Translations under genes and position numbers: made by a program | Shown here: piece after piece, positions 10,015 through 45,394 of the stretch | How the letters are laid out: each line of letters starts with the position of its first letter | Numbering within the stretch: position 1 is the stretch's first letter | Source: Flavobacteriales bacterium | GTDB lineage: Bacteria > Bacteroidota > Bacteroidia > Flavobacteriales_D > Sanyastnellaceae | Assembly (NCBI GenBank): GCA_049610985.1 | Contig: JBMZAB010000005.1 | Location: forward strand, 12,587-76,586 | Reading direction: 5' to 3' | Length of the DNA: 64,000 nucleotides | Notes under the pieces: generated by a model | What the model saw: the letters and a program-made list of their open reading frames with translations, nothing else | Databases searched by the model: none | Told to the model about the DNA's origin: nothing

Positions 10015-10082
10015 GACGTCCTAGGGTTTGTTGGGCAGAGCTGTCAACATGGTTGGCCAAAAGCCGCCAAGAATTGCAACAA
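9989..10082. repeat. 94-nt perfect direct repeat, copy A (last 12 codons + stop + hairpin of the 10044-11216 gene)
   Basis: Hand alignment gives 9989-10082 identical to 26951-27044, with a constant offset of 16,962 nt. Confidence 0.9.
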
Positions 10083-11216
10083 GTCTCCGGTCGACACCGA
10101 CCCATCCCCGTCCAAATCTGCAGGGCACAGGTCTTCTGCGGCCTCTGCAATGCATTGGTTCAATTCCGCATTCCATGTGGTCCCGGCACCGCAATACAAC
10201 GAAGGGTCCACGACTTCTTCGTCTGCGTCACAAATTCCATTGTCGTTGTCGTCCGATTGGCAGCTTCCTCCACAAATGCCCAAAGCATCTGCTTGGTTGC
10301 CTTCGCAATCGCAATCTCCTTCAGGAATGTCGCTGCATCCGCATTCGTACACCTCTCCCGGACCGTTGCAGATGCCGCACGCATCCAAGGCACCCACACA
10401 CGGATCCACATCGTCACAAATGCCATCCCCATCTGCATCCTCGCAACCGTCTTCTTCACATGAAATGGCTCCGCCATTGACCGACAACTCGGTGAATTCA
10501 ATCAACCCACTGGAAAATTGAAATTTGACCGACCGAGCGAAGGAGACGGCGCTGACAGTCACGTCGTTGAGTCCCAAAGACAGCGGCATCGCATTGCCAT
10601 TGTTCCAATTCCCGTTGGCCACGGTCTTCACCACACGGTAGTTCGCCCCTTCAGCGGGCAAAGCTGTAACAAAAATGCTCATGGATTGGGCGTCGGCGCT
10701 GTTTGGATCGTCAGGCGTGGTGGCAGTCACCACGTGTGGCCATGTGGCATTGGGCCCTGCATCCACCCCCGCGCAAGTCTCCATCGCGACACCATCCAAA
10801 TCGTTGGCACAAGACAGGGCGTCTCCATTGAGCGAAAGCTCAGTAAACTCCACCAGGCCGCTGTCGAATTGAAATTTGACAGACCGGGCGAAAGACACCG
10901 CACTGACCGTCACAGAGTTGACACCCAACACCAAGGGCACGGCGTTGCCATTGTTCCAGTTCCCATTGGCCACCGTCTTGACCACGCGGTAGTTCGCCCC
11001 TTCTGCGGGGAGAGAGGTGATAAAAATTTCCAGGCTTTGGGCACCGGAACTGTTCGGGTCGTCAGGTGTGGTGGCCGTCAGCACATGCGACCATGTGGAA
11101 TTGGGGCCTTCGTCGAACAAATCACACGATTCAATTGCGTTTTGGCCCCAGGCAAAAGAAGAAGCGAGGAGCAAAAAGAGCGCGAGGGTTGGAGAGGGGA
11201 TTTTCATGACACTCAA
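10044..11216 (-). CDS. secreted protein: two tandem about 106-aa unknown domains + Cys-rich TSP3-like region + dockerin-like C-terminal tail
   Basis: Signal peptide MSVMKIPSPTLALFLLLASSFAWGQ. Duplicated module ...GPN(S/A)TW.HV.TATTPDDPNS...ANYRVVKTVANGNWNNGNA...FARSVKFQF.SGL.EFTELS.NG. Also [14 protein letters not shown] and [21 protein letters not shown]. The tail is CPADLDGDGSVSTGDLLQFLAAFGQPC. Confidence 0.8.
   Translation of the reverse strand: MSVMKIPSPTLALFLLLASSFAWGQNAIESCDLFDEGPNSTWSHVLTATTPDDPNSSGAQSLEIFITSLPAEGANYRVVKTVANGNWNNGNAVPLVLGVNSVTVSAVSFARSVKFQFDSGLVEFTELSLNGDALSCANDLDGVAMETCAGVDAGPNATWPHVVTATTPDDPNSADAQSMSIFVTALPAEGANYRVVKTVANGNWNNGNAMPLSLGLNDVTVSAVSFARSVKFQFSSGLIEFTELSVNGGAISCEEDGCEDADGDGICDDVDPCVGALDACGICNGPGEVYECGCSDIPEGDCDCEGNQADALGICGGSCQSDDNDNGICDADEEVVDPSLYCGAGTTWNAELNQCIAEAAEDLCPADLDGDGSVSTGDLLQFLAAFGQPC
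10458..11126 (-). repeat. in-frame tandem domain duplication (period 351 nt / 117 aa)
   Basis: Residues 31-136 and 148-253 of the 390-aa protein align without gaps. Nucleotide identity is roughly 80% by eye. Confidence 0.85.
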
Positions 11217-12889: not shown

Positions 12890-12903
12890 GGAAAGAGAAT
12901 TTG

Positions 12904-18129: not shown

Positions 18130-18130
18130 G

Positions 18131-20071: not shown

Positions 20072-20127
20072 GGCTCAACTTACTCCATATTGTTGAACGA
20101 CTGCGGCATGGGCCCGTCAAGAATGCG

Positions 20128-21153: not shown

Positions 21154-22565
21154 CAGTGCGTGGATTCAAAAGAGCGAAACGGGTCGTTTTTCCAGGTGAT
21201 CCCATCTTGCCACCGAGGCGCTTTCACTTGCTTCAGATAATCGAGCAAGTCCGACTCCATGTCGTGGGCAAGCTCCGGCAACTTGAGCGCGAGGTTTGTC
21301 GTCTCTTCCAAGTCCTTCTCCAAGTCAAACAACCGCACCTCGCCGTTGTCGTGGAACTTCAGCAGTTTGTAATGGCCAGAGATCCAAGCCGAGTGTGCAC
21401 GGTTGAGGGCGATTCGGTTTTGGTATGGCACATGAAAGGCCATGCCCCCATTCGGCCGCACCACATCCTTGGCTTGCACTCCTCGCAGCACGTGGACAAA
21501 ACTACCCCCATCCAAGCTGTCAGGCGCCTCACTCCACCCTCCCGCCAATTCAGCCACGGTGGGCAAGAGGTCCGCTCCCCAGACACAGGCTGACGTCGCC
21601 ACGTTCGCAGCAACACCAGGACCTGACACCACAAACGGCACCCTGAGCCCACCTTCCATGGCGTCCCATTTCCCCCTGCTCAAGGGCTCATTGAGGCTCT
21701 TCTCATAATGCTTGGCCCCAGGAATGTTTGGGACACCCCCGTTGTCGGACAGATAGATCATGTAGGTGTTGTCGTCCAACCCCAATTCATGAACCTTCGC
21801 CAAGAGTAGGCCTAGACTCGCATCCAAGTCCATGGTCATGCCGGCCATTCCTTGGTGACGGTGTCGCCGGCCGGGCTCCGTCCTTCCCACCTTGCCTAAA
21901 GAAGCTGGTGTTGTTTCAATGTTGGTGTGCACCGCATAATGGGAAATCTGTAGGAAAAACGGACGGGCCAAGGCATGACAAGAGTCCACGAATCTCATTG
22001 CACGGTCTGTCAACTCAAAGACACGCTTGGGGTCAGAAACCACCTCGGTCTCCCATTGACTTCTGTCGTTGACGAACCCGCCATCCACATTTTTCGTCGG
22101 TCCGTCGCTGACGTCGTACCCCACCTCCTCAGGGGTGCCACCCATGCCCCATTTTCCAAAATGTGCGGTCTGGTACGTTGAGTCGATGGTCTGAAGGGCC
22201 TTGGGCAAACTCACCCAGTCCCCGTGAGGAATGTGAGAGGTGTTCATCCCCACCCGAATCAACTGGATTCGGGCTGGAGATTTCCCGAATTGAATGCTGT
22301 AACGCGACGGGGCACACACGGGTGCCGACGCCCTCGCGTTGGAGAACCTCATCCCGCTTTGGGCCAACGAATCCAGCCACGGCGTCTGGTGAAAGTCACT
22401 TGCCGATTCTGGCAGCCCAGGAACCATTTCCACCGACGTCCCATTCCACGCCTGGTCGTCCACCAGCACGACGACAAAGTTTGGCGGGGCCTTCTGACAC
22501 GTGCGCTCATCCGAGGCACACGAGGCACAAAAAACCAAGCACAACATCCACACGTGCATCCTCAT
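21153..22565 (-). CDS. sulfatase (Cys-type, arylsulfatase A-like)
   Basis: Signal MRMHVWMLCLVFCASC, then NFVVVLVDDQ... and the C-x-P-x-R signature in APVCAPSRYSIQFG. Confidence 0.9.
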   Translation of the reverse strand: MRMHVWMLCLVFCASCASDERTCQKAPPNFVVVLVDDQAWNGTSVEMVPGLPESASDFHQTPWLDSLAQSGMRFSNARASAPVCAPSRYSIQFGKSPARIQLIRVGMNTSHIPHGDWVSLPKALQTIDSTYQTAHFGKWGMGGTPEEVGYDVSDGPTKNVDGGFVNDRSQWETEVVSDPKRVFELTDRAMRFVDSCHALARPFFLQISHYAVHTNIETTPASLGKVGRTEPGRRHRHQGMAGMTMDLDASLGLLLAKVHELGLDDNTYMIYLSDNGGVPNIPGAKHYEKSLNEPLSRGKWDAMEGGLRVPFVVSGPGVAANVATSACVWGADLLPTVAELAGGWSEAPDSLDGGSFVHVLRGVQAKDVVRPNGGMAFHVPYQNRIALNRAHSAWISGHYKLLKFHDNGEVRLFDLEKDLEETTNLALKLPELAHDMESDLLDYLKQVKAPRWQDGITWKNDPFRSFESTH

Positions 22566-24082: not shown

Positions 24083-24092
24083 AATGCCTGGC

Positions 24093-25046
24093 TCAAGGAC
24101 GATGAACGATGAAGCGATGGACTTGGGTAATTCCTCCCAGGTGCGTCTCCAACAAATACGTGCCTGGCAACCATCCAGAAACATCAATGGCCGTGGAGGT
24201 CGACTGAGAATGTTCAGTCAAGCACACCTTGCCCTGGGCATCCAACACCCGAAATCGGCCAAGGGCTAGGCTGGACGTCACCCACAATTCCATGGATGCA
24301 GGGTTGGGCGCCATGCCGATGGACAAGGAGGACTGAGCGTCTTGCACGTCGTCCACTTCCCCGGCGCAAAGGCAATCGGCTGTGATCATGTCGTTGATTG
24401 TGTCGTCGTTTCCGTCATCGCACGAATCCCCCACCAAGACACACATGCCGTTGTCCACTTCTGCATAGGGCGCGTAGTTGCACGCCTCCGCATTGGTGCA
24501 ACCCACAGAATTGTAAACCACCATTTGTTTCCAGTAGATGGTGTCTCCATTTGCAACTCCCCATGGACCGCGCCAACCAAAGCGCCCCACTGTCCCTTCA
24601 AACGTGCCACTCCCACTGTTGGGGGGGCTTGTCAAATCCAAGGTGTACGTCTGGAATCCCTCCATCTCTGTGTCCACAGGAACATTCCAATGACACATGA
24701 ACGCGTTGGTTTCTGGTGCGTAGGCGAACAGACGCGCGTTGGGGTTGCCCGACGTGGTGGGGTTTCTCAACGTGATTTGAACGCGGTCGTACATGCCGGC
24801 GTCGATGCCCAAGCTTTCATTGACTGTGCCACTGCGCATGACCGGGGTCGTGTTGAATGCCCGCATGGCCATGGCCTCGGGCTGCTCAATGAGGTTGCAA
24901 CCGAGGTTGGACTCACTGGCGGGAACCCACCCTTCCTTGGAGTCTTGCCAATCGTAGACAATCTGCGCCGTGGCGCACGTCGGGGCAATCACAAACGACA
25001 ACAACAAACAGACGATGCAGGAGGAAATGCGCAAGGAGGTGGTCAT
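24093..25046 (-). CDS. T9SS C-terminal-sorting-domain protein with unknown N-terminal domain and one ACNY module
   Basis: Signal MTTSLRISSCIVCLLLSFVIAPTCATAQ and module GCTNAEACNYAPYAEVDNGMC. The last about 75 aa (24096-24320: ...MAPNPASMELWV...LDAQGKV...GTYLLE...) match the Por_Secre_tail pattern. Confidence 0.75.
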   Translation of the reverse strand: MTTSLRISSCIVCLLLSFVIAPTCATAQIVYDWQDSKEGWVPASESNLGCNLIEQPEAMAMRAFNTTPVMRSGTVNESLGIDAGMYDRVQITLRNPTTSGNPNARLFAYAPETNAFMCHWNVPVDTEMEGFQTYTLDLTSPPNSGSGTFEGTVGRFGWRGPWGVANGDTIYWKQMVVYNSVGCTNAEACNYAPYAEVDNGMCVLVGDSCDDGNDDTINDMITADCLCAGEVDDVQDAQSSLSIGMAPNPASMELWVTSSLALGRFRVLDAQGKVCLTEHSQSTSTAIDVSGWLPGTYLLETHLGGITQVHRFIVHRP

Positions 25047-25098
25047 AACTCTTTCAATGGATTGATTCACAGGCAACGTCCCAAGGTACATTAGAAGC

Positions 25099-26943
25099 AT
25101 GAGTCTTCTCCGCACTCCAAGTGCAACCTGCTGCTCCATGTTGTTGAGGCTTGGCGCCTTTTGGGTTGGCATGGTTGGATGCATCCTCTCCTGCCACGCC
25201 CAGCAAACCTACCACGTGTCGCCCACAGGCGACGATGCGCTCTCGGGATTGTCTCCAACGAATGCCTGGCAATCCTTGGACGCGCTGAATGCGCAAACGT
25301 TCTTGCCAGGCGACAGCATCTTGTTTGAGCGGGGCGGAATTTGGCATGGCATGCTGCACCTTAAAGGGTCGGGGGCTGAAGGAGCGGCACTCGTCGTTGG
25401 AGCCTATGGAGACAACTCCCAGCCCAGGCCCATTCTGGACGGGGACGGATACCAAGCGTCCCTTTTGATTTACAACGACAGCCACATTGTTGTCCAAGAC
25501 ATGGTTTTCACCAACCAAACATCCCATCTTGATGACAATGGTGAGGTGAAGAAATTGCCCACGTTTTTGGGCGAAACCAACGATTGGGGGTCGGGCAAGA
25601 ACGTGCGATTTGGCATCAAGGTCGTTGCCGACGCGGCCACTGTGAAGGACCTTGTGTTCCGAGATGTCAAGCTTCACGACATCTACCCCACCCCAACCAA
25701 CCCAGACAACGCTCACTTGGGTTACGGCATCAAGCTTGAAAGTCGATCCGACACTTTGAACGGGCAAATTCACACCATCGACGACGTGTTGGTGACCGGC
25801 GTTGAATTCACACGGACTGGGCATTATGGCATGTGGATCAAACCGCTTGGCCTCGCGGGGAACAACAGCATCAAGCACGAAAACATCCACATCACCGGGT
25901 GCACCTTCACGCACACAGGTGGCTCAGGGTTCGTGCCCAACCGATCGAGACATGTGGTCGTGGAACACTGCCTGTTCAACCACGCAGGCTCGAGCATCGA
26001 CGATCGCATGTGGGCGCGTGGAAGCGGCACATGGCCCTTCAAATGTGAGCGGGTCGTCATCCAACACAACCGCTTGATGAATGCCCACGGACCCCAAGAC
26101 TCGTACAGTGCGCACATCGACTACGGCTGCAAAGACGTTGTCATTCAATACAACCTGAGCTTCAACAACGAGGGCGGGTTCGCCGAGATTTTGGGGGACA
26201 ACATCAATTGTGGATACAGGTACAACATCAGTGTCAACGACGGACACCGGGAGGACCCAGACGGACAACCTTGGAACAAGAAGGGCAAAATCTTCTGGCT
26301 TTCGACGTTTTGCGGGAACAACCAAGTTCGATGCCCCAGCCAGGGCTCCTTCTTCTACAACAACACGGTGTACGTCGACGAGTCCATCAATCCTGAAATC
26401 TACGTATGGCCAGATGCGGGCGATGTGCTGATTTGCAACAACCTGGTGTCCATGGCTGCGGGTGGCGAGGTCCTTCCGACTTTGCTTGAAGACGAAGGCA
26501 ATGTGTTCAACGTGAACCACAATCTATTTCACCCTCCAGCGCGCATCGACCTTGACAACGACCTCCTGACGAACGCCTCGTTTCTGTCGCCCCAGTTCTT
26601 GGCCACAAGCGACGCCCCCGTCCAGTCAGAACTGAACTACCAACCGTCTCCTGCCAGCCCCACCTTGGGCAACGGCGCGTTGATTTCCGGAAGTGATGAC
26701 CCTTGGGACTTTCGCCACAACAATGGAGGTCAAGATTTTTTTGGCCTGCCCGTCCCCGACACTACTGCCCCGACCATCGGTGCCTTGCAACGCAGCTTGT
26801 GCGCCGAAAGTACCTTTTGGAATGCCAACACGAATCAGTGTGAGCCTCACCCTGAACCATGTCCGGAGGATTTGGATGGAGATGGCACGGTCAGTGTGTT
26901 CGACCTGCTGATGCTACTGACCGCCCTGCCCACAACATGCTGA
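25099..26943 (+). CDS. right-handed parallel beta-helix protein (possible polysaccharide lyase/hydrolase) with dockerin-like C-terminal tail
   Basis: N-terminus ...QQTYHVSPTGDDALSGLSPTNAWQSLDALNAQTFLPGDSILFERGGIWHG is typical of beta-helix carbohydrate-active proteins, with repeated ...N..V... coils. The tail is CAESTFWNANTNQCEPHPEPCPEDLDGDGTVSVFDLLMLLTALPTTC. Confidence 0.8.
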   Translation: MSLLRTPSATCCSMLLRLGAFWVGMVGCILSCHAQQTYHVSPTGDDALSGLSPTNAWQSLDALNAQTFLPGDSILFERGGIWHGMLHLKGSGAEGAALVVGAYGDNSQPRPILDGDGYQASLLIYNDSHIVVQDMVFTNQTSHLDDNGEVKKLPTFLGETNDWGSGKNVRFGIKVVADAATVKDLVFRDVKLHDIYPTPTNPDNAHLGYGIKLESRSDTLNGQIHTIDDVLVTGVEFTRTGHYGMWIKPLGLAGNNSIKHENIHITGCTFTHTGGSGFVPNRSRHVVVEHCLFNHAGSSIDDRMWARGSGTWPFKCERVVIQHNRLMNAHGPQDSYSAHIDYGCKDVVIQYNLSFNNEGGFAEILGDNINCGYRYNISVNDGHREDPDGQPWNKKGKIFWLSTFCGNNQVRCPSQGSFFYNNTVYVDESINPEIYVWPDAGDVLICNNLVSMAAGGEVLPTLLEDEGNVFNVNHNLFHPPARIDLDNDLLTNASFLSPQFLATSDAPVQSELNYQPSPASPTLGNGALISGSDDPWDFRHNNGGQDFFGLPVPDTTAPTIGALQRSLCAESTFWNANTNQCEPHPEPCPEDLDGDGTVSVFDLLMLLTALPTTC

Positions 26944-27180: not shown

Positions 27181-27214
27181 AAAAAAAATCCCGACCTCAC
27201 TGGCCGGGATTTTT
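27181..27214 (-). terminator. rho-independent terminator of the 2379-aa gene
   Basis: Minus strand AUCCCGGCC-AGU-GAGGUCGGGAU forms an 8-9 bp stem including a G.U pair, followed by U8. It lies 67 nt after the stop codon at 27281-27283. Confidence 0.65.
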
Positions 27215-27280: not shown

Positions 27281-30200
27281 TCACTCGGCATCCTGGATGC
27301 AACGAACAGACATTCCCTCTCCCCCCGCAGAACTCACCGAGATAGTCGTAAAGGCGCTATGTAGTCCTCGGAACATGCCGCCGTTGCCTACGGGCGAAGA
27401 AGTCCACCAGCTCGCTACGGTTCCTGCACCATGGCTGCCATTGGCATCCTCGTATCCGGCTGGCAAACCAGCAAAACCACTCGTATTTGTGCCGTTCCAA
27501 GCGGGGTTATCACTTGGTGAGGCTTTCAATTGAGTGCCTTGGTCGGTGCCTCGCCAGGCCCCGCTGTTGGCTTCTGCCTCAGTCATGCCCAAAGCAAATT
27601 CCAAGGTTAACCAGTCTTCATGCGACGGAACGTGCCAGCCGCTCGGACACAGACCACGGGCATCGTCCACGGCGTTCCAATTGTAAAGGCGGCCGTAAGT
27701 CTCAAGAAGTGAAGCATCGTCATTGTACACTGCAACAGCTCCAGACGACATATTCATCCACTCGCTTTGGCTCACGTTTGAAGAAATAGCATCGCCATTC
27801 TCATAGTTCTCGCTGCGGAGGTTCTCAGCAAACCAGCATTGGTCACCGATCAGCACCGTGGCGTAATCGTAGCCCTGGTAGGAAAAAGGGTCGCCGCAGG
27901 ACAAAGACTCAGCCGGACAACTGGATGACCAATCAAATTCCCAGTTCTCGTTTGACGAGAATGCCGAATGAATGCTGCATTTGTTTTCATCAGAGAGGGA
28001 GTTTTCAGCTCCAGACATCATCGCTTCCATGTTTTCCACATTCGAAACGTCCCAGCCAGAGATGTCCTGGTCGAAAACGAGACCGGCGTCGGCGTAAAAC
28101 ATGGCCCCCATGGACACCACATTGGAAACGTCCCAGCCTCCGATTGGCTGATTGAATGAGTAAGCATCCTTGAACATGGAAGTCATATCGGTCACATTGG
28201 ATACATCCCAGCCAGAAATGTCACTGTTGAACTGAAAGGCTCTGTGGAACATGTCCCGGGTGTTGGTCGCACTCGAGACATCCCAAGAGGAAAGATCTCT
28301 GTTGAAGATTTGAGCATCATCAAACATCCAGGTGAAGATTTCGACCGACGACACGTCCCACCCGGACACGTCTCCATTGAAAGAGTGGCATCCAATAAAA
28401 TGGTGATTCATGTTGGTCACATTGCTCACATCCCAATTCTCCAATCCCTCACCTGTGAATGATCCGCAGCTCCTGAACGCATTGTCCATGCTTGTCACAT
28501 TGGAGACATCCCAATCTCCAAGGTTCTGATCAAAAGAGCTACACCACACAAACATGGATTCCATGCTTGTAATACCTGACACGTCCCAACCACTTATGTC
28601 AGCGTTGAAATCATAACAATCCCAGAACATTTGTGTCATATCCGTCACGCTGCTGACGTCCCAATCGGAAATGTCAGCATTGAAACTTTCACATCCTCTG
28701 AACATTCGGTGCATGTTGGTCACATTGGATACATCCCAGCCAGAAATGTCCGCATTGAAGTTGGTGTGAGCTGTCGAACAATCCCATTCGCATCCAAAGA
28801 GCATGACCATGTTCGTAACAGCACTCACGTCCCAGTCTTCAATTGGACCATAAAGGGCTGCTGCCTCAGCTTGGTCATCGTACCAGAGGTCGACCGCACT
28901 GTGGATGTTGTCATTGGTCAACTCCACCAGGTCAGGCCCGTTGTTGAAGTCAATCACCCAAGGGCAAACGTTGCCCCACAACTGGAAGAAGTCGAGGAGG
29001 TCATTCACGTCCACTTGACCGTCACCGGTGAAGTCGCCTGGACAAGGCTCGAGGTAGTCACACTCGCCTGGGTAGTTGGCAGAGGCGTCGAAGTTCAAGG
29101 CCGTGTCGTCCTGACATCCGATGTAGAGACAAGCATCATCTCCGCTGCCGTCGGCGTACTGGTCGTAGTTGATCGCCGCTTCGTCGCTGCAACCTGTGGT
29201 CAAGCAGCTGAAGTCGCAGCTCTCGTCGTCGATGGTTGCTTCAGGATCGAAGTTGCACGCGTCAGCGTACATACAACCTCCGTACAAGCAAGAACCGTCG
29301 TCTACGTTGGCCTCGTCGTCGTAGTTGGCCGCCGCTGGATCGGTGCAACCGACAGCCTCACAGCCGTCAGGCACTCCGTTGCCATTGGCATCGAACTCTG
29401 GGAAGATGTTGCCGTCGCAGTCGAACGCCACAATCATGACAGGATCGTACCCTCCAGTTTCCTCATTGAATTCGAAACAAGGCACAGCATCGACGTACTC
29501 GCAGCTTCCGTCGTCAACGGTGACGTCTGAGTCGTAGTTGCAGGCGTTGAAGCCACCAAATGGGTTCAATGAAGCATCCATGCATCCGAAAACATCTTCT
29601 TCGTCACAAATGCCGTCATTGTTGAAGTCGTTGTAGCACTCTCCATCGCAGTTGCGCAACTCGTCCTCGGAGTAAGTGCAAGACCCGTCGTCGTAAGTGG
29701 CATCTTCGTTGTAGTTGCAGGCTGCATACGTTCCATCTTCAGCCAAGCTGTCGTCGGTACATCCGCATGACGGCGCACCGAAGCTCAACGTCAAGTACTC
29801 AGCGTCTGCACCCACCCCGTTCGGGAAGACCTGCACATAGAGCTGACCAGTCAACGTTCCGTCGGTGGTCAACTGCGCGATCAACACGCGGTTGTCGTCA
29901 CCAGCCACACCGTTCGACAAGTCACTGAGGGTGAACCAGCTGGCTCCAAAGAATCCGCTGAGCTCGAGGTTTCCACCGGCTTCGAAATCGTCGGCCCAGG
30001 TGTCCCCTGCCGCAGCAGCCAATGTCACATCCTGCACGCTGTCGTCGCCTGCAGCAGGAGCCTGGTCAATGCCAATGGTCAACCAGCTGTCGTAGGCTGA
30101 GCTTGGGAACAACTCAAACAACAAGGGGTTGATCGCACCTGCAGTCACTCCGCCGTATTCGTCCTGGTAGAAGCTCGTGCTCGTACGCAAGTATGAGGGG

Positions 30201-33200
30201 TTGAATTCGTCACCTGCCACAGCTGACACGAAGTCGGTCGGACCTGGCGTGGTCACGTACAGGCGGTACGTGGTCATGCCTGCAATGCCGCCTACCGCGT
30301 GTTCCTCCACTGCGAGACCGAAGCCGTTTTGGCCACCGTCGCCGTCAAGGGCGCATGAGCAGTAGTCGCATGAACCGTCATCAATCAACGAACCGAGGGT
30401 GTAGTTGCATGCGAGGACGTCGGTGCATCCGAGGCAAGTCTCGTACTCACAAGAACCGTCTTCTTCTGTCGCATCAGCTGAGAAGTTGCAGGCACCTGCA
30501 TCTTGACATCCGTAGATTTCTTCGCAATCACGCACACCGTCACCGTCCGTGTCCACATCGTCGGTCACGTCAAGGCCAGCCAGAATCGCAGCCACGGCCT
30601 CTGCACCTGTGGTGTTGCACACCTCACAACCTTCCAATGGAATCACGGCTGGCTGCAAGTCGGTCACGCCTTCTACGTAGTTGCACGCAGTTGGCACCGG
30701 GCTACCCAAGATTTCGAGTTCGTCACACACCCCGTCGCCGTCGGCGTCGTTGATGCACGTCTCTCCATCGCACTCGTAGAATTCGGGAGCGTAGTAGCAC
30801 GCCAACTCAGAGGCGGACACCATCACTTCAATGGAGCCTTCAGAACCGGACACAGAGAACCCCGACACATTGTCCCCATCCACGATGGTCATCTCAGCAC
30901 CGTTCCAGCCGTCGCCGTAAGAGTCGAAACCTTCGATGGTGTAAGAACCGCCGTCCAATGCAATGAATCCATCGAATGGAGCCCCGTAGGTTTCACCGTT
31001 CAACGTCCAAGAAATTTCTGAAGGCCATGAACCTGCAGTCAAAGCAATGCTCAACCCTGAGGCTGGTGCTGGGTCTGTTGCTTCCGGGTTGTAGTTGCAA
31101 GCCATTTCGTCTTGACATCCCTCCACTTCACACACGTCGTTCACACCATCTCCGTCAGAATCGAGGTCAGTCAAGCCACCATCTTCAGTGCAGAAGAGAC
31201 AGTTGTCGGCATCCTCGAACAAACAGCCCGCGGGGTCCACCATGACGTCAATTGAACCTTCACTTCCGCTCACGGAGAACGAAGAAGAGTTTGAAGGGTT
31301 GTTAGCGTCCACGATGGTCATTTCCGCACCGTTCCAACCATCTCCGTATGAATCGAAGCCAGCAATGGTGTATGCACCTTCGTCAAGGGCAATGAACCCT
31401 TCAAATGGTGCACCATATTCTTGGCCGTTCAATGTCCATGTGATCTCAGAGGCATAGGATCCTGCAGTCAAAGAGATGTTCAAGCCAGAAATAGCGTCAT
31501 CTGTGGCTGCAGGGCTGTAGTTGCACGCGGACTCGTCCTGGCAACCGGCAATCTCCAATTCATCGCAGACACCATCGCCATCAGAATCGTTCAAACAGCT
31601 GCCGTCACAGTCATAGTGCTCCTCAGCATATTCACAAAAATCGGCGTCGGTGGCCTCAGGGTTGTAGTTGCATGCGGTGTCATCTTGGCAGCCCAACACC
31701 TCCAATTCGTCACAAATTCCATCGCTGTCCGCGTCGTTCAAACAAGGACCACCGCAGTCATAGAATTCAGCGGCGTACTCGCAAGAACCATCTGAAGTGT
31801 TTGCTGCTCCGTCGTAGTTGCACGCAATCGGATCGGTACAACCTGGAACCTCATCGCAATCATTGATGCCGTCGCCGTTCGAATCGACTGGGACAGATTC
31901 ACCATCAACACATTCTTCGCAACCTGGGAATGGGACATCGCAGCTGCCATCGTCGCCACAAGCTCCCGCGTCATAATTGCAAGCTTCAGGGTTGGTGCAA
32001 CCGAGGTAACCGTCTCCACCGCAAACGCCACACGCATCGAGCACATTGCCGTCGCAGTCGCAAGCTGTTTCTTCAAAGCCAGAAGCGTAAATGCCGACCT
32101 CAGCAATGTGAAGCACGTTGCATCCATAAGATGCGCCAGGGCGCACAATGCGTACAACAGAACCAACCAATGGGGTAGGACACACTGCCAAAATGGGAGC
32201 GTTGATGTCATCACCAAGGGTCAAGTTATCTGCGCAAACAACTCCATCAACTTCAACACGAGCTCCATTGATACGCTCGTGACAACAGTCTTGGCGAGGA
32301 GTAATGCTAACTTCTGTCACCTCTCGGTCACCTCCCAAGCTGATTTGCCACCACTGGTCACCGTCTTGACCGCAATCAGTGTGATTGAAAGTGTTCAGGT
32401 CTCCATCAACAGCGTTGGATGCTGGTTCAGCTGTGGTGCTCTGGTCGGCTGTGGAAGCGTATGCGCTCAAGTCAAGCCAGCTGTAGTCACCAAAACCTCC
32501 TTCAGGAAGATCGGAACAGCCGCACTCGTAGATCGCGCCCGGACCGTTGCACACGCCGCAGTCGTCGTAAGCACCAACGCAGTCGTCCACGTCGTCGCAG
32601 GTGCCGTCGCTGTCCGCATCGGCTGCACAAGCACCGCCACACAATCCAATGGCGTCAAGCTGGTTGCCATCGCAGTCGCAGTCACCCTCTGGGATGTCTG
32701 CGCAACCGCACTCGTAAATCGCACCCGGACCGTTGCAAATGCCGCAATCGTCATAAGCACCAACGCAATCGTCTACGTCATCACAGATGCCATCGCTGTC
32801 CGCATCGGCTGCACAATCACCGCCACACAAGCCAATGGCGTCAAGCTGCAAGCATGAACCGTCTTCGTTGTTGGCCTCAGGGTTGAAATTGCAGGCTGTC
32901 TCGTCCATGCAACCACAGACGGTCACGATGTTCGGGAATTCACCTTCTCCCTCAAAGTCGACCGACTTTTGGATTTGGTTCTGACCGTCTCCCAGAGGGA
33001 AAATTTGGTAATTGAGGGTTCCTGAGATGGGGCCTGCCGTGGTGATCTGGGCGATCAACCAGCGCCCGTCGGTTGGAAGGGCGTTGGCAGCTGTGTTCAA
33101 AACGTACCAAGACGCCCCTGTGAGGGTGTTCACGTTGAAGCCAGTGCCTCCAGATTGGAAGTAAGCGCTCGGGCTAGGTGAGAGAGATGCGTCCTGCACG

Positions 33201-34420
33201 AGTGAAGGATCTTCTGCCCCTGGCACTTCTGCTGCTGGACCAGCAAGTCCAATTGTGGCGAAACTGTCAAACGCCAAATCTGGAAAGAAAGCCAAAAGAC
33301 CAGCACTCAATCCGGATGCATTCCAAGAGCTGTTGAAGGCATCGTTATAAATGCCTTCAGGCGTATTGATTATCAAAGGCTTCTGGTCGTTTCCGAACAC
33401 CGCAGAGATTTTGTCGGTCGCGTCTTCTGCATTCACGTAGAAGCGGTAAGTCGTGCCGAGATCTCCCACGTTGTAAGACTCCACAGTCAACTTGTACCCG
33501 GGGGTGAGCATTTCAGCGGCTGCGGGAACACAAGCGTCCTCGTCGTCGCAAATGCCGTCTCCGTCTGCGTCCAAAATGCAGTTGCCTTCGCAATCACGGG
33601 CAAAAGCAGGCAAGGTTCCCGCACAATCGCACGCACCTTCTGGGATGCCAGGACCATTAGGGACTCCACATTCATCGGCACAACTAGAGTTATCTCCGTT
33701 CGGGACTCCACATTCATCGGCACAGCTAGAGTTATCTCCGTCGCAAACACCACATTCATCGAGTTCGCCGGCGCATGGATCTTCTACCTCATCTCCCACG
33801 AAATTCCAAGTTTGCTGAATTTGATCAGCTCCGTCTCCGAGAGGGAAGATTTGGGCGTTGAGGGTACCAGAAATGTCACCCGCTGTCGTGATTTGTGCAA
33901 TCAACCACCGACCGTCTGTTGGCAGAGCGTTGGCAGCAGTATTCAAAACGTACCAAGACGCCCCTGTGAGGGTGTTGACATTCAATTCGGTGCCGCCGGC
34001 CTGAAAGTAGCCGCTCACTGTAGGAGACAGGGATGCGTCTTGAACCAATGATGGATCTTCAGCACCTGGCACTTCTGCTGCAGGCTGAGAAAGACCGATT
34101 GTGGCATAGCTGTCGTCGGCGAGTTCTGGGAAGAAAGCCAAGAGACCAACACTCAATCCAGATGCGTTCCAAGCGCTGTTGAAGGCATTGTTGTAGATGC
34201 CTGAAGGGGTTGACAGAATCAAGGGATTCTCGTCGTTGCCAAAGATGGCAGACAACTTGTCGGTGGCATCGTTCGCTTCGATGTAGAAACGGTAAACAGT
34301 GCCTTCTTCTGGAAGGACGGCAGCTGATGTCTCAATCGACATGCCATATTGCGCGTTGGCGCCCATGAATGGGGCCAATCCGAGCAGAGCCATGAGGGCG
34401 TAGCAAAGGTTCGTTCGCAT
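27281..34420 (-). CDS. giant mosaic secreted/surface protein (2379 aa)
   Basis: Uninterrupted 7.1-kb ORF with signal [24 protein letters not shown]. Order of parts: unknown domain A x2, Cys/TSP3 modules, F-type lectin, ACNY modules, DSYGDGWNG domain x2, domain A copy 3, ACNY modules, internal dockerin-like loop, BspA LRRs, Fib_succ_major. Confidence 0.9.
27284..27898 (-). other. Fib_succ_major (Fibrobacter succinogenes major paralogous) domain
   Basis: [11 protein letters not shown]...[10 protein letters not shown]...[13 protein letters not shown]...[12 protein letters not shown]...ASWWTSS...GMSVRCIQD follows the family's ordered motifs. Confidence 0.85.
28001..28918 (-). other. BspA-type leucine-rich repeats (DUF285-like), about 10 units
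   Basis: Repeated [15 protein letters not shown] units, preceded by the typical ...[34 protein letters not shown] leader. Confidence 0.85.
28964..29044 (-). other. internal copy of the dockerin-like Cys-framed loop
   Basis: [27 protein letters not shown] (residues 1793-1819). The same motif is strictly C-terminal in three other genes of this window. Confidence 0.8.
32081..32458 (-). other. F-type lectin (fucolectin/FTP, F5/8-type-C-related) domain
   Basis: [16 protein letters not shown]...[37 protein letters not shown]. The R-x-D-x4-R motif is exact (RQDCCHER), with a His 29 residues upstream. Confidence 0.75.
32498..32845 (-). repeat. tandem duplication of a 54-aa Cys/TSP3 module (period 186 nt)
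   Basis: [49 protein letters not shown] occurs twice (32684-32845 and 32498-32659), joined by DCDCDGNQ. Confidence 0.9.
33661..33744 (-). repeat. 42-nt in-frame tandem duplication
   Basis: 33661-33702 and 33703-33744 are identical up to the unit's last few bases, except one a/g at 33683/33725. They encode (N/D)[13 protein letters not shown] twice. Confidence 0.9.
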
Positions 34421-34484
34421 GATGAGATAATTTTATTCACCCTAAATATACGACGCAATCTCGAGAAAAGTTCCACTGAGCTCA

Positions 34485-34524
34485 AAAAAATCTTGATTCG
34501 TCGGGAAAAAATCCAAATTCGTCG
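34485..34524. promoter_or_regulatory. two 19-nt direct repeats (AAAAAATC-n4-TTCGTCG), 21-nt period, in a divergent promoter region
   Basis: 34485-34503 aaaaaatcttgattcgtcg and 34506-34524 aaaaaatccaaattcgtcg lie between the giant gene start (34420) and ffh (34611). A TATATTTA box (34450-34443, minus strand) sits about 23 nt upstream of the giant-gene ATG. Confidence 0.2.
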
Positions 34525-34610
34525 CACGTGTCACAACGCATCCCGCGACAACTCTCTGTGTACCTTTGCCGCGGCCTTCGCGCCCCTGAATCACCCACTG
34601 ACCCCGAACG

Positions 34611-43480: not shown

Positions 43481-45394
43481 TCAGCAGGGCTCGCCGTACA
43501 CCGACAACAGCATCAGGAGGTCGACCGACGTCACCTCCCCGTCTTCATTGAGGTCCGCGGGACACACATCCTCAACCGCCCCCATCAGACAAGTCCCGTC
43601 GTCCAACGTGGCTGCCGGGTCGTAATTCTCCGCGCCCGTCCATGTGCATCCTGAGCACCCCTCTGTGGTGCACGACCCGTCGTCCAGCAGCGCCTCCGGA
43701 TCGTAATTGCACGCGAGTTGGAAGGTGCACCCCGCACAAGACGCTCTTTCACAGCTGCCGTCGTCCACCAAGGCCAAGGGGTCGTAGTTGCAGGCAAAAT
43801 CGTACGTGCATCCTTCCGTCAACACGACCTCACCAGAAAACAGCCCCATGCCGTCCAGGGTGGTCCACCCCGCAAACCAAGGCTCAAGGACGGGATGAAA
43901 CGCCCCGTGGTAGGACGTCACTTCGAGCCTGTCGTCCGTCTGCAAGTAGTACGGTGTCACCGTTTGGCCTGCGGCTGGTCTCGGATCCAGTCCATCGACA
44001 AGCACACCGTCTGCGAGTGTGAAGTCTCCATCCTGGAGCACTTCCAACACCACGTTGCCGCTGTCGGACAGCCATCCCGAGAGTTCATCCTGGGCATCGT
44101 AATTTCCGTTGTAGCGACCTGGGATGACCTCACCCTCCCCACAAACCCGCCAATTGCGCAGGGTCAAGATGCCATACTGACTGGGCATGATGGCGTTGAA
44201 GCCGTCGCAAGACAAGTAATGTTGGATTTCAATCCCCGCGTCGCTCACCCCGTGCACAATGCTGTTCGTCCAATCGCCCCCTGGCAAGCTGTGGTAGCAC
44301 GCTGCATAATCGGCTCCGTTGGTCAACAGCGTGAGGTTGCTCATCGCCGGGGTGCAAAACGGTTCCGCGGTGGGGTCCATGTTGCTCTCCTCGAAGTCGT
44401 CGCCTTCCGCGTCGTACACAAAGCTGCGGCCTGGTGGGTTGCTGGCATGGGCCAACGCCGTGTCTTGAAGACCAAACCAATGTTGTCCCGCACCTTGCCA
44501 CCCCTGGTCGCTTTCAAACGCATCCTCCGCGTGGAACGCCGACATCACGCGCCGCACCTCCACCAAGCCTCCGAAAATGTGGAGACCATCGTCGGCCGAC
44601 GCCAGCAATTCAATGTGTTCCACCACCGTACCAGAACCGCAGGCTCCGAGCTGAAGCAGGTCCGTCTCGTGGCCATTGCCGCTCTGGTTCCATCCCAGGT
44701 TGGTGCTCCCATGGCGAATCGACAAGTGTCGCAAGATGCCCGAAGATCCGTGGGGGTCCTCGTTGCCGCCGTACACGTGACGCTGTTGTCCCGACACGTC
44801 GACCACACCTTCCAAGAGGTCCTCACCCGACCCCACACCTCCTGTGAAGGTCGGCGCATTGGCGAAGGAAAGATCGAGGTTCAGCGTGTTGGTTTGGGCG
44901 CCGCCGCACAAGGCCAAACCACCCCACATGCCCCGCACATCCAACCCCACTGAGCCGTCCAAAGGGTCTCCCAAAAAGGAAAATTGGATGGGGCAGTCAG
45001 CCGTGCCTTGGGCATCCAAGAACGCGCCCCTCGCCGCGATCAACGCCCCTGGCATGGTGCTGTAGCTCACGGTCTTGATGGAACCAAAAGCAAACGGAAT
45101 CTCCACCAGGCTCTCGCTCCGCCCCTGTCCCCCGGCGCCCAACACCACCGTGCCAGGCTCAACGCGAAGCGTGTCTCCAGCATTGATGAATACTTCTTCA
45201 AGAAGCACGTAGTGGTGGTCACAAGTCCACACTTGACTGCCCACTCCTGCACCGGCATTGTCCGTCACCCACACGGTGTCACGTTCCGACACGTTCGGGC
45301 ATCCGCACCCCTGTGCCACTCCTTCGCAAGGGGACGCACAGAGCCCCATCAAAAGGGACCAACACAACGCGAAAAGAAACCGGTACAAGGTCAA
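43481..45394 (-). CDS. secreted beta-helix-like protein with three ACNY modules and dockerin-like C-terminal tail
   Basis: Signal MTLYRFLFALCWSLLMGLCASPC. A central region with ...WGGLALCG..., ...YGGNEDPHGSSG... and ...ADDGLHIFGG... resembles a Bacteroidota surface-protein family. ACNY modules lie at 43589-43813. The tail is CPADLNEDGEVTSVDLLMLLSVYGEPC. Confidence 0.8.
   Translation of the reverse strand: MTLYRFLFALCWSLLMGLCASPCEGVAQGCGCPNVSERDTVWVTDNAGAGVGSQVWTCDHHYVLLEEVFINAGDTLRVEPGTVVLGAGGQGRSESLVEIPFAFGSIKTVSYSTMPGALIAARGAFLDAQGTADCPIQFSFLGDPLDGSVGLDVRGMWGGLALCGGAQTNTLNLDLSFANAPTFTGGVGSGEDLLEGVVDVSGQQRHVYGGNEDPHGSSGILRHLSIRHGSTNLGWNQSGNGHETDLLQLGACGSGTVVEHIELLASADDGLHIFGGLVEVRRVMSAFHAEDAFESDQGWQGAGQHWFGLQDTALAHASNPPGRSFVYDAEGDDFEESNMDPTAEPFCTPAMSNLTLLTNGADYAACYHSLPGGDWTNSIVHGVSDAGIEIQHYLSCDGFNAIMPSQYGILTLRNWRVCGEGEVIPGRYNGNYDAQDELSGWLSDSGNVVLEVLQDGDFTLADGVLVDGLDPRPAAGQTVTPYYLQTDDRLEVTSYHGAFHPVLEPWFAGWTTLDGMGLFSGEVVLTEGCTYDFACNYDPLALVDDGSCERASCAGCTFQLACNYDPEALLDDGSCTTEGCSGCTWTGAENYDPAATLDDGTCLMGAVEDVCPADLNEDGEVTSVDLLMLLSVYGEPC

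What the first reader, a model, noticed from the sequence alone, without database searches (positions are those of the whole stretch)
27281..34420. 2379-aa mosaic surface protein combining at least seven module types, without a T9SS CTD
A single uninterrupted ORF encodes the following, in order. Signal peptide. Unknown about 180-aa domain A, three copies (33806-34342, 32963-33496, 29777-30337). TSP3-like Ca loops ([14 protein letters not shown]). More than 15 ACNY Cys modules. An F-type lectin. Two DSYGDGWNG domains. An internal dockerin-like loop. About 10 BspA LRRs. A C-terminal Fib_succ_major domain. I have not seen this combination described. The usual Bacteroidota sorting tail is absent, so how it reaches or stays on the surface is open. 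The gene has its own strong terminator and an AT-rich upstream region.
Basis: partly seen in the sequence, partly recalled or inferred. Interest (0 to 1): 0.7.

Follow-up and report, generated by a model that had tools for sequence, protein, structure and literature searches.

The report
Giant fused flavobacterial lectin with dockerin-like tag
This is a real 2379-residue secreted, calcium- and disulfide-rich sugar-binding protein of an uncultured marine Flavobacteriales bacterium, made by fusing a giant "stalk" protein to a complete smaller lectin protein exactly at a short dockerin-like module that, in this clade, ends secreted proteins about as often as the usual type IX secretion tail does and never together with it.

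Summary
GenBank already holds it as MGB1055685.1, named "BspA family leucine-rich repeat surface protein".

The exact module combination is unique among about 560 relatives, but it is built from recurring blocks:
- Syntenic orthologues share the core: domain A x2, GDGW x2, domain A, dockerin-like module (DOCK).
- This copy has gained an F-type lectin insertion.
- Its last ~585 residues (DOCK, 11 DUF285/PARCEL repeats, FISUMP) align end to end with the whole mature form of free-standing 600-870-aa proteins. The gene is therefore a fusion at DOCK.

No type A or B T9SS tail is present. The "internal dockerin-like loop" is probably the missing tail:
- Three other genes in this window end in it.
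- In 1.09 Mb of related loci, 68 ORFs end in it and 50 end in a T9SS CTD.
- No protein carries both.
- DOCK-ending proteins include GH16, reprolysin-like, M43 and S8 enzymes.

Most likely function: multivalent attachment to glycans or particles. How DOCK-tagged proteins cross or stay on the outer membrane is still unknown, and no cohesin-like partner was found.

The parts
27281..34420 (-). Whole gene, 2379 aa plus stop. GenBank protein MGB1055685.1, 'BspA family leucine-rich repeat surface protein', Flavobacteriales MAG.
34352..34420 (-). Signal peptide, aa 1-23, predicted cleavage ANA|QYG (Q-rule). There is no lipobox.
   Evidence: Read from the sequence. Conserved in orthologues. Q-rule paper PMC5837995.
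33800..34351 (-). Domain A copy 1, aa 24-207. Cys-free beta-sandwich domain with no curated family.
33497..33799 (-). Cys-rich spacer 1, aa 208-308 (13 Cys). Contains CGVC(D/N)G motifs and one DxDxDG loop.
32951..33496 (-). Domain A copy 2, aa 309-490. 76% identical to copy 1.
32501..32950 (-). Cys-rich spacer 2, aa 491-640 (22 Cys). Includes a tandem ~62-aa duplication with TSP3-like loops DADSDG(I/T)CDDVDDC.
   Evidence: (family D4, 86% nt identity)
32075..32500 (-). F-type lectin (FTP / F5_F8_type_C) domain, aa 641-782. It is an insertion that the syntenic orthologues lack.
31493..32074 (-). Cys-rich spacer 3, aa 783-976 (25 Cys). ACNY modules alternate with DxDxDG loops.
31229..31492 (-). 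GDGW (DSYGDGWNG) domain 1, aa 977-1064. Eight-strand beta sandwich.
30815..31060 (-). GDGW domain 2, aa 1121-1202.
   Evidence: (family D3)
30323..30814 (-). Cys-rich spacer 5, aa 1203-1366 (17 Cys).
29777..30322 (-). Domain A copy 3, aa 1367-1548. Divergent, 32% identical to copy 2.
29051..29776 (-). Cys-rich spacer 6, aa 1549-1790 (23 Cys). Six to seven ACNY-type modules.
28955..29050 (-). DOCK, aa 1791-1822: [32 protein letters not shown] Cys-bracketed single dockerin-type Ca-loop plus helix. It is the fusion joint.
28016..28954 (-). DUF285/PARCEL region, aa 1823-2135: N-cap ([23 protein letters not shown]) plus 11 repeats of ~25 residues.
27284..27892 (-). FISUMP (Fib_succ_major) domain, aa 2177-2379, at the extreme C-terminus.
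27181..27214 (-). Intrinsic terminator hairpin AAAAAUCCCGGCC-AGUGA-GGUCGGGAUUUUUUUU.
34421..34530 (-). AT-rich (35-42% GC) upstream region. It lies in the divergent intergenic space towards ffh.
26860..26940 (+). C-terminal DOCK tag (CPEDLDGDGTVSVFDLLMLLTALPTTC*) of the convergent neighbour, a beta-helix protein (gene 25099-26943).
10047..10127 (-). C-terminal DOCK tag (CPADLDGDGSVSTGDLLQFLAAFGQPC*) of the XC110 x2 protein (gene 10044-11216).
43484..43564 (-). C-terminal DOCK tag (CPADLNEDGEVTSVDLLMLLSVYGEPC*) of a 637-aa secreted protein with three ACNY modules (gene 43481-45394).

Best explanation
The gene encodes a Sec-exported, disulfide- and Ca2+-stabilised giant modular lectin or adhesin of an uncultured marine Flavobacteriales bacterium.

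Shown:
- It belongs to a large multi-paralogue family: an N-terminal 'domain A' followed by arrays of small Cys-rich ACNY and DxDxDG modules.
- The syntenic orthologues share the core A-A-GDGW-GDGW-A-DOCK.
- This allele additionally carries an inserted F-type lectin domain.
- Its C-terminal ~585 residues are collinear with the entire mature form of free-standing DOCK-PARCEL-FISUMP proteins. The gene is therefore a fusion of a DOCK-terminated giant and a DOCK-initiated lectin protein, joined at the shared DOCK module.
- DOCK is one dockerin-type Ca-loop plus helix, clasped by two cysteines. In this clade it ends secreted proteins (giants, GH16, reprolysin-like, M43, S8 and beta-helix proteins) about as often as the T9SS CTD does. 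It never co-occurs with the CTD.

Inferred:
- The Cys-rich modules form a rigid, Ca-loaded stalk.
- Domain A, GDGW, the F-type lectin, the PARCEL solenoid and the C-type-lectin-like FISUMP tip give multivalent binding to algal or particle glycans. The conserved neighbouring sulfatase/FGE/beta-helix cluster points to sulfated polysaccharide.
- DOCK, not a T9SS CTD, mediates Ca-dependent docking to a surface partner or to another DOCK, so it serves in place of the CTD for retention or assembly.
For: - ORF and domains.
- Family size and taxonomy: 249 homologues, and 1093 representative clusters at E<=1e-3. 78 loci in marine Flavobacteriales/Crocinitomicaceae MAGs, with several paralogues per MAG.
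- Synteny ffh-folD | giant | beta-helix | CTD protein | sulfatases holds in two independent assemblies. The gene there is 1785 aa, or 179+1745 aa.
- Core shared at 77-86% identity. The FTP domain is absent from orthologues, and their C-terminal cassette differs.
- Fusion: aa 1823-2379 hits free-standing PF03382+PF09603 proteins at 98% coverage. All 14 N-complete CTD-less members start with signal peptide plus DOCK. One BLASTP HSP joins giant 1796-2342 to P0400 27-583, 45% identity, E 5e-148, starting in the DOCK loop.
- DOCK resembles a dockerin repeat: the best PDB profile hits are type I dockerins (2y3n_B 1.3e-6, 1ohz_B 1.6e-4), each matched twice. Pfam gives weak Dockerin_1 and EF-hand hits on the tails.
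- DOCK versus CTD: of 36 readable 3'-complete domain-A ORFs, 16 end in a CTD and 20 in DOCK (read from the tails). Among 564 sequences, 70 have a CTD, 148 have DOCK, and none has both. Three more DOCK-ending genes lie in the window. In 1.09 Mb of related loci, 68 ORFs end in DOCK and 50 in a CTD.
- DOCK-ending proteins are typical secreted hydrolases. A crude heuristic finds signal-peptide-like N-termini in 34 of 47.
- FISUMP is a C-type-lectin-class ligand-binding tip used as a DGR target (PMC5758913).
Against: - No binding specificity was tested.
- The F-type lectin lacks the canonical fucose-binding His.
- Domain A and GDGW have no convincing structural relatives: best TM 0.38 and 0.50, and no match at E<=0.001. 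Their 'binding' role is a guess.
- No cohesin-like partner was found. The 34 T9SS-tailed neighbours have no Pfam Cohesin hit.
- DOCK is internal here and in about nine relatives, so it cannot be a strictly terminal signal.
- Two of five FISUMP proteins next to the free-standing genes have neither DOCK nor CTD by my pattern.
- The DOCK/CTD exclusivity is partly positional, because both usually sit at the C-terminus. The sample also consists of related and often fragmentary sequences chosen by homology.
- A docking module explains retention. It does not explain how a 250-kDa folded protein crosses the outer membrane.
Confidence: 0.6

Rival explanations
1. It is still a T9SS substrate. Either an unrecognised, non-A/non-B C-terminal signal (for example the FISUMP domain itself) is read by the T9SS, or DOCK binds a CTD-bearing carrier in the periplasm and the complex is exported together (piggyback). 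A candidate carrier is a small domain-A-CTD protein.
For: - The organism has T9SS cargo next door.
- A third, sequence-unrelated CTD class (type C, ChiA) is accepted in the literature (PMC10202324).
- Small domain-A + CTD genes lie divergently next to domain-A...DOCK genes in 8 loci.
- DOCK-tagged enzymes are of the same kinds as classical T9SS cargo.
Against: - No CTD model matches at E<=1.
- FISUMP is also found internally, upstream of a true CTD, in P0121. In the literature it is a ligand-binding tip.
- The syntenic orthologues end in a different domain, XC110, which also occurs internally in tandem.
- As far as I know, piggyback export through T9SS has not been shown.
Confidence: 0.2
2. 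It is not surface-anchored. It is released as a soluble or vesicle-borne multivalent lectin ('glue' or aggregation factor), or it stays in the periplasm. In this reading DOCK is only a Ca-dependent structural cap for the Cys-rich stalk.
For: - There is no lipid anchor, no CTD and no beta-barrel.
- DOCK tolerates N-terminal, internal and C-terminal positions.
- Some neighbouring FISUMP proteins have no tag at all.
- No receptor was found.
Against: - The tag is used on many unrelated enzymes and is strictly exclusive with the CTD. That is hard to explain for a mere structural cap.
- Many tails carry a duplicated, complete two-repeat dockerin-like domain.
- Lectin and hydrolase domains make sense outside the cell.
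Confidence: 0.15
3. The architecture is an assembly chimera: reads from paralogous repeat-rich genes were joined wrongly, so the 2379-aa ORF does not exist in nature.
For: - The source is a MAG contig.
- The family has many paralogues per genome.
- No independent sequence in my sample contains the FTP insertion, and none combines the FISUMP end with this core.
Against: - Intragenic repeats are at most 86% identical at DNA level.
- The gene is a single frame, bounded by a conserved signal peptide and a terminator.
- It sits in conserved synteny.
- An independent long-read assembly matches aa 780-1997 at 86% identity, across the DOCK-PARCEL junction.
- Fragments from other assemblies at 88-95% identity cover aa 1425-1824.
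- The PARCEL-FISUMP junction is collinear with free-standing proteins.
- The FTP domain is flanked on both sides by orthologous sequence in frame.
Confidence: 0.05

Closest known systems
Free-standing DUF285(PARCEL)-FISUMP proteins of Bacteroidota. NCBI names them 'BspA family leucine-rich repeat surface protein' and JGI 'TIGR02145 family'. Examples: P0366, P0373, P0390, P0400.
   Same: - Signal peptide with the Q-rule, DOCK loop, NDNIHxAVDLW cap, WDVS repeats and a FISUMP end.
- 45-50% identical and collinear with aa ~1796-2379 of the giant.
   Different: They are 600-870 aa and begin with DOCK directly after the signal peptide. Here the same unit is preceded by 1790 residues of another protein type.
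Syntenic orthologues of the giant in related Flavobacteriales MAGs (P0125 in GCA_902562575.1; P0123, P0124, P0128).
   Same: - Same locus (ffh, folD | gene | beta-helix | CTD protein | sulfatases).
- Same signal peptide.
- Same core A-A-GDGW-GDGW-A-DOCK at 70-86% identity.
- None has a T9SS CTD.
   Different: They lack the F-type lectin. After DOCK they carry a ~110-aa beta domain (XC110), and in P0124 a few PARCEL repeats come first. They do not have 11 PARCEL repeats plus FISUMP.
Cellulosomal type I dockerins and dockerin-bearing enzymes (Clostridia, Ruminococcus).
   Same: - A Ca-binding loop DxDxDGxVxxxD followed by a helix. The DOCK profile's best PDB hits are dockerins.
- The module is appended to the C-terminus of secreted hydrolases and binding proteins.
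- Many related tails carry two repeats.
   Different: - Here there is a single repeat bracketed by two Cys (presumed disulfide clasp), and it can be N-terminal or internal.
- The host is a diderm Bacteroidota member.
- No cohesin was found, and Pfam Dockerin_1 is below threshold for the giant.
T9SS-secreted giant adhesins of Flavobacteria (SprB, RemA) and the T9SS-tailed paralogues of this same family (for example P0121, L035, L063).
   Same: - Very large repetitive surface proteins of Bacteroidota with lectin-like modules.
- The paralogues share domain A, the ACNY modules and even FISUMP.
   Different: Those end in a type A or B CTD that is recognised by T9SS. This protein has none.
Giant Ca-binding T1SS adhesins (SiiE, LapA/LapF, BapA, MpIBP). 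Named from my own knowledge.
   Same: A long Ca-stabilised stalk with ligand-binding domains near one end.
   Different: Those have no N-terminal Sec signal, and they have a C-terminal T1SS signal and BIg/RTX repeats. This protein has a Sec signal peptide and Cys-rich modules. The NCBIfam adhes_GNV_Cterm hits seen were not reproduced on the three DOCK tails tested alone.

Membership tests
T9SS cargo, type A CTD | C-terminal ~75-aa Por_Secre_tail (PF18962 / TIGR04183) | tested here: not met
   No hit at E<=1 in Pfam or NCBIfam. My own CTD HMM finds it in the neighbour and in paralogues but not here. FISUMP fills the C-terminus to residue 2376 of 2379.
T9SS cargo, type B CTD | C-terminal CHU_C / gliding-motility CTD (PF13585 / TIGR04131) | tested here: not met
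   No hit at E<=1.
T9SS cargo, type C CTD (ChiA-like) | C-terminal ~100-aa ChiA-type signal (cl41395, per PMC10202324) | tested here: inconclusive
   Nothing of the kind appears among the four NCBIfam hits. I could not verify that a type C model is in the libraries searched.
F-type lectin (FTP / fucolectin) | F-type lectin fold and sequence signature, including RxDCCxER | tested here: met
   PDB hits FBP32 6e-14 and eel agglutinin 2e-10, with PRQDCCHER aligned to RGDCCGER. Pfam F5_F8_type_C 2.5e-11.
F-type lectin (FTP / fucolectin) | Fucose-binding triad His, Arg, Arg | tested here: not met
   Both Arg residues are kept. The His aligns to Gln (versus 1k12) or falls in a 3-residue deletion (versus 3cqo). 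Fucose specificity cannot be assumed.
DUF285 / PARCEL repeat proteins | Tandem ~25-residue amphipathic repeats matching PF03382 / TIGR02167 | tested here: met
   PF03382 4.2e-88. TIGR02167 2.1e-36 with 9 stretches. 11 WDV[ST] repeats. Family described in PMC2996958.
FISUMP (Fib_succ_major, TIGR02145) | Full-length match to PF09603 with the conserved Cys residues | tested here: met
   PF09603 4.8e-41, profile positions 1-187 of 187. TIGR02145 3.9e-28. Invariant C24, C87 and C203 in alignment A6.
Diversity-generating retroelement target | A template repeat matching the 3' end of the FISUMP/CLec domain, plus a reverse transcriptase nearby | tested here: not met
   No second copy of nt 27281-27900 anywhere in the 64-kb window. 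A reverse transcriptase was not specifically searched for.
Type I dockerin | Ca-binding loop plus helix with the dockerin signature | tested here: met
   The profile of 18 DOCK modules hits dockerins first (2y3n_B 1.3e-6) and generic EF-hands only at E>=0.5.
Type I dockerin | Two tandem repeats forming one ~60-70-aa domain that passes PF00404 | tested here: not met
   The giant has one repeat and no PF00404 hit at E<=1. On related tails PF00404 is weak (best 0.0075; 1.7e-4). Double repeats do occur in other proteins of the clade.
Type I dockerin | A cognate cohesin partner | tested here: inconclusive
   No Pfam Cohesin among 34 T9SS-tailed proteins of related loci. Whole genomes were not searchable. 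One Flavobacterium coralii DUF285 protein carries precomputed PF00963 plus a CTD.
Bacterial thrombospondin type 3 repeats | Match to the TSP_3 / TSP3_bac models | tested here: inconclusive
   Nine DxDxDG(I/V)(C/N)D loops by pattern, but no Pfam TSP3 hit at E<=1 for this protein. Relatives carry PF18884.
Surface lipoprotein (SPII plus lipoprotein export signal) | Lipobox Cys at the signal-peptide cleavage site | tested here: not met
   The only N-terminal Cys is residue 6, inside the n/h-region. The cleavage motif is ANA|Q.
T1SS giant adhesins (BapA/LapF/SiiE) | No Sec signal, and a C-terminal T1SS signal | tested here: not met
   A Sec signal peptide is present. NF045619 does not match the giant or the three DOCK tails tested alone.

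The most novel reading that the evidence does not exclude
Marine Flavobacteriales of this clade may have a second, undescribed system for displaying or assembling exported proteins.
- The tag is a Cys-clasped dockerin-like module, in single-repeat or double-repeat form, and it can sit at either end of a protein.
- It marks hydrolases, lectins and giant stalk proteins as an alternative to the T9SS CTD.
- It would dock them Ca-dependently onto a surface receptor or onto each other. A candidate receptor is the uncharacterised domain A carried by small T9SS-anchored proteins encoded next door.
- The result would be a cellulosome-like 'adhesosome' on a diderm cell.
- The giant in this window would then be a Rosetta-stone fusion of a stalk and a head that are separate, docking polypeptides in relatives.
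Probability: 0.3. Interest if true: 0.8.

Novelty: new variant of a known kind. Interest (0 to 1): 0.55.

Why it matters
Flavobacteriales are major degraders of algal polysaccharide and colonisers of particles in the sea. Their exported hydrolases and adhesins are generally assumed to travel by T9SS and to be recognisable by a CTD.

In this clade, within the homology-selected loci sampled here, ORFs ending in the short dockerin-like tag (68) slightly outnumbered those ending in a CTD (50). The tag is not covered by any Pfam or NCBIfam model that passed threshold here.

- If the tag mediates surface docking, CTD-based predictions of the secretome and surface proteome miss much of it.
- It would also point to a cohesin-dockerin-like assembly principle outside the Gram-positive cellulosome world.
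- The giant shows how such proteins evolve: whole ligand-binding 'heads' are swapped or fused at the tag.

Tried and rejected
- DGR target idea for FISUMP: no template repeat in the window.
- PDB sequence searches found nothing meaningful for domain A, FISUMP (single sequence and profile), the GDGW domain (single sequence and profile) and the PARCEL region.
- Foldseek of confident AF2 models gave only weak Ig-like or adhesin-like resemblances, so no fold family was assigned.
  - Domain A: pLDDT 85, best hit Als3, TM 0.38, E 5e-3.
  - GDGW: pLDDT 92, best hit MmpS5, TM 0.50, E 0.02.
- NCBIfam 'adhes_GNV_Cterm' hits looked like a link between DOCK and T1SS adhesins. Three DOCK tails scanned alone gave no hit, so I dropped that link.
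- A cohesin-like receptor was sought among 34 T9SS-tailed proteins of related loci. There was no PF00963 hit.
- I tested whether free-standing DOCK-PARCEL-FISUMP genes lie next to giant genes, which would suggest a simple read-through fusion. They lie in arrays of other FISUMP genes instead.
- Literature searches for dockerin-like tags in Flavobacteriales, and for such mosaic giants, found nothing relevant in the held library.
- The simple terminator scan missed the hairpin. Folding confirmed it.
It ran after I removed them.

Full report
**1.

A single ORF occupies 27281-34420 on the minus strand (2379 aa, ATG start). The N-terminus ([23 protein letters not shown]|QYG) has the shape of a Sec/SPI signal peptide that exposes Gln. 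This is the Bacteroidota 'Q-rule' (PMC5837995, listed). The same N-terminus recurs in orthologues.

About 70 nt past the stop lies a GC-rich hairpin followed by a U-run. It folds at -23.9 kcal/mol, z = -4.0 against shuffles. Upstream, GC drops to 35-42%.

The exact protein is in GenBank as MGB1055685.1, 'MAG: BspA family leucine-rich repeat surface protein [Flavobacteriales bacterium]', on a 91.7-kb contig.

**2. Module map**

Pfam, NCBIfam, home-made HMMs and motif counts give this order:

| Residues | Module |
|---|---|
| 1-23 | signal peptide |
| 24-207 | domain A |
| 208-308 | Cys-rich spacer |
| 309-490 | domain A |
| 491-640 | Cys-rich spacer with a tandem 62-aa duplication |
| 641-782 | F-type lectin |
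| 783-976 | ACNY / DxDxDG array |
| 977-1064 | GDGW domain |
| 1121-1202 | GDGW domain |
| 1367-1548 | domain A |
| 1549-1790 | ACNY array |
| 1791-1822 | dockerin-like module (DOCK) |
| 1823-2135 | DUF285/PARCEL cap plus 11 repeats |
| 2177-2379 | FISUMP |

- The Cys-free globular domains alternate with spacers that hold 106 of the 128 cysteines.
- The lectin's best solved relatives are the canonical F-type lectins FBP32 and eel agglutinin. The RxDCCxER arginines are kept, but the fucose-binding His is Gln or deleted.
- Domain A and GDGW gave confident AF2 models (pLDDT 85 and 92). Both are beta-sandwiches without a convincing PDB neighbour.
- Neither Pfam nor NCBIfam reports any T9SS tail at E<=1, and FISUMP runs to the last residues.
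- The organism does use T9SS: the gene at 24093-25184 carries Por_Secre_tail.

**3. It is one member of a large mosaic family**

- Domain A alone retrieves 249 proteins. In an exhaustive search it retrieves 1093 representative clusters, 576 of them at E<=1e-10.
- It occurs in 78 loci of marine Flavobacteriales/Crocinitomicaceae MAGs, several per genome, almost always right after the signal peptide.
- The full-length search shows hundreds of 1300-3900-aa relatives. They mix the same Cys-rich modules with LTD, CBM48, SprB, PA14-type and other domains.

**4. Orthologues define a core, and this allele has two novelties**

In two independent assemblies the same neighbourhood (ffh, folD | gene | beta-helix | Por_Secre_tail protein | sulfatases, FGE) holds a gene of 1785 aa. 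In a frameshift-prone long-read assembly it is split into 179+1745 aa.

- These orthologues match residues 1-628 and 780-1827 at 70-86% identity.
- They lack the F-type lectin.
- After DOCK they carry a ~110-aa beta domain ('XC110'). In P0124 a few PARCEL repeats precede it.
- None has a T9SS CTD.

**5. The C-terminal third is a complete second protein**

Residues 1823-2379 hit free-standing 600-870-aa proteins with Pfam DUF285+FISUMP at 98% coverage and 45-50% identity.

- Every N-complete, CTD-less member (14 of 14) starts with a Q-rule signal peptide, followed at once by a dockerin-like loop-helix (for example DPDVDGDNNIGVNDLLALLGLF). Then come the same NDNIHxAVDLW cap, WDVS repeats and FISUMP.
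- The one member with a T9SS CTD has no DOCK.
- A single BLASTP segment aligns giant 1796-2342 with P0400 27-583 (E 5e-148). It begins inside the DOCK loop.
- The giant is therefore a DOCK-terminated stalk protein fused in frame to a DOCK-initiated lectin protein, with the shared module as the joint.

**6. DOCK is the clade's alternative terminal tag**

- Of 36 readable 3'-complete domain-A ORFs, 16 end in a Por_Secre_tail. The other 20 end, within six residues of the stop, in C-P-x-D-(F/L)-x-G-D-G-x-V-x-x-x-D-L-L-x-F-x-x-x-x-G-x-x-C.
- A profile of 18 such modules finds cellulosomal type I dockerins as its best PDB hits (1.3e-6, 1.6e-4, 7.9e-4). Each dockerin is matched twice, so DOCK corresponds to one dockerin repeat.
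- Across 564 fetched sequences, 70 carry a CTD and 148 carry DOCK (114 C-terminal, 16 N-terminal, 18 internal). None carries both.
- In this very window three further genes end in the tag: the convergent beta-helix neighbour (25099-26943), an XC110 x2 protein (10044-11216) and a 637-aa protein (43481-45394).
- In 1.09 Mb of related loci, 68 ORFs end in DOCK, many as a duplicated two-repeat domain. 50 end in a T9SS CTD.
- The DOCK-ending proteins without domain A include reprolysin-like M12B (9), GH16 (5), M43 (5), S8 (2) and beta-helix (2) enzymes. That is the kind of cargo normally given a CTD.
- NCBIfam has no model for the tail.
- I found no paper describing it in the held library.

**7. 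Caveats**

- The loci were chosen by homology to domain A, so the counts are not a genome census.
- Many sequences are fragments.
- A C-terminal DOCK excludes a C-terminal CTD by position alone.
- Two neighbouring FISUMP proteins have neither tag by my pattern.
- DOCK can be internal.
- No cohesin was detected among 34 CTD-tailed neighbours.
- A docking module explains retention, not passage across the outer membrane.
- The T9SS literature already accepts a third, unrelated CTD class (PMC10202324). Small domain-A-CTD genes sit divergently beside domain-A...DOCK genes in 8 loci. A T9SS-linked route therefore remains a live rival.

**8. Artefact check**

- DNA repeats inside the gene are at most 86% identical.
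- An independent assembly supports residues 780-1997 across the DOCK-PARCEL junction.
- Other fragments support residues 1425-1824.
- The PARCEL-FISUMP junction is collinear with free-standing proteins.
- Only the lectin insertion lacks independent support. It is in frame between orthologous flanks.

**9. Verdict**

This is a genuine, intact, secreted giant lectin or adhesin and a new architectural variant in a large uncharacterised flavobacterial family. Its particular module mix is explained by one domain insertion and one gene fusion.

The most interesting outcome is not the mosaic itself. It is that the 'internal dockerin-like loop' belongs to an abundant, uncurated, CTD-exclusive tag on exported proteins of this clade. 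What the tag does, and what it binds, remains to be shown.

Noticed in passing
window 25099-26943 (+), 10044-11216 (-), 43481-45394 (-): Three other secreted-looking proteins in the window end exactly in the Cys-bracketed dockerin-like tag (..CPEDLDGDGTVSVFDLLMLLTALPTTC*, ..CPADLDGDGSVSTGDLLQFLAAFGQPC*, ..CPADLNEDGEVTSVDLLMLLSVYGEPC*). They are a beta-helix protein, a protein with two XC110 domains, and a 637-aa protein with three ACNY modules. Only one gene in the window (24093-25184) has a T9SS CTD.
   Followed up: yes
related loci, e.g. L004:3053-5617(-), L046:4831-7740(-), L055:6197-8614(-), L071:5881-8343(-): Many proteins of the clade end in a duplicated tag (..FGC-x3-C-x-D-V-D-G-D-x-x-V-x-V-x-D-V-L-x-x-L-x-x-F-G-x-x-C*). 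This is a full two-repeat dockerin-like domain with extra cysteines. Pfam on 45 such ORFs shows reprolysin-like, GH16, M43 and S8 enzymes, lysyl oxidase and CBM48-like modules.
   Followed up: partly
L013, L014, L015, L016, L025, L033, L039, L045 (e.g. L015:8185-10050(-), 9917-11926(+), 11901-13874(+)): A conserved gene cluster recurs in several MAGs. A small (515-620 aa) domain-A + T9SS-CTD gene lies divergent to a domain-A...DOCK gene. In at least L014, L015, L025, L033, L039 and L045 a second DOCK-ending gene follows. In L015, L025, L033, L039 and L045 a double-DOCK gene also lies a few kb upstream. This suggests functional coupling between T9SS-anchored domain A proteins and DOCK-tagged proteins.
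   Followed up: partly
window 10044-24187 (-) and 25099-26943 (+): Next to the giant lies a cluster of three sulfatases (11267-13126, 21153-22565, 22562-24187), an FGE-type sulfatase-maturing enzyme (20128-21153), a CBM30-like protein (14187-15380), several ORFs with no Pfam hit, and the beta-helix protein. The part nearest the giant (beta-helix, CTD protein, two sulfatases, FGE) is syntenic in L002 and L003. It looks like a sulfated-polysaccharide utilisation cluster without SusC/D in view.
   Followed up: partly
window 10044-11216 (-); C-termini of P0123, P0125, P0128; internal tandem copies in P0170, P0182 and others: An uncurated ~110-aa beta domain ('XC110', ECSLFANGPNATWTHV...SVNGDAQECE) is bracketed by Cys. 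It occurs as tandem pairs inside giants, as the post-DOCK end of the syntenic orthologues, and twice in a small DOCK-tagged protein of this window. Its only weak NCBIfam hit is 'choice-of-anchor Z' at 0.0075.
   Followed up: partly
L016, L021, L028, L035, L043, L051, L061, L062 (titles 'Comamonadaceae'); L040 (title 'Methanobacteriota archaeon'): Contigs that carry typical Flavobacteriales domain-A genes (Q-rule signal peptides, T9SS tails) are filed under MAGs labelled Comamonadaceae or Methanobacteriota. This is probably mis-binning or mislabelling in the public records.
   Followed up: no
L001, L002 (ENA '..._pilon' long-read contigs); proteins P0002, P0009, P0012, P0124: In polished long-read assemblies the homologous giants, and even folD in L002, are split by frameshifts into short ORFs with out-of-frame tails. 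This explains why the first homologue list contained only proteins of 321 aa or less.
   Followed up: partly
P0420 (Flavobacterium coralii): A cultured-genus DUF285 'BspA family' protein carries precomputed Pfam Cohesin (PF00963) together with PKD domains and a T9SS CTD. This is the kind of T9SS-anchored cohesin carrier that a dockerin-like system would need. I did not examine it further.
   Followed up: no
window 32499-32848 (aa ~524-640): A tandem duplication of a ~62-aa unit ([46 protein letters not shown]), 86% identical at DNA level, lies immediately upstream of the F-type lectin insertion.
   Followed up: no
L082:6765-12271 and L083:1-11878: Free-standing DOCK-PARCEL-FISUMP genes sit in arrays of other FISUMP genes (Laminin_G_3-FISUMP x2; a 978-aa FISUMP/FG-GAP_2 protein). 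One neighbour (Lcl_C + SprB) also ends in the DOCK tag, and a phage-type integrase lies nearby in L083.
   Followed up: partly
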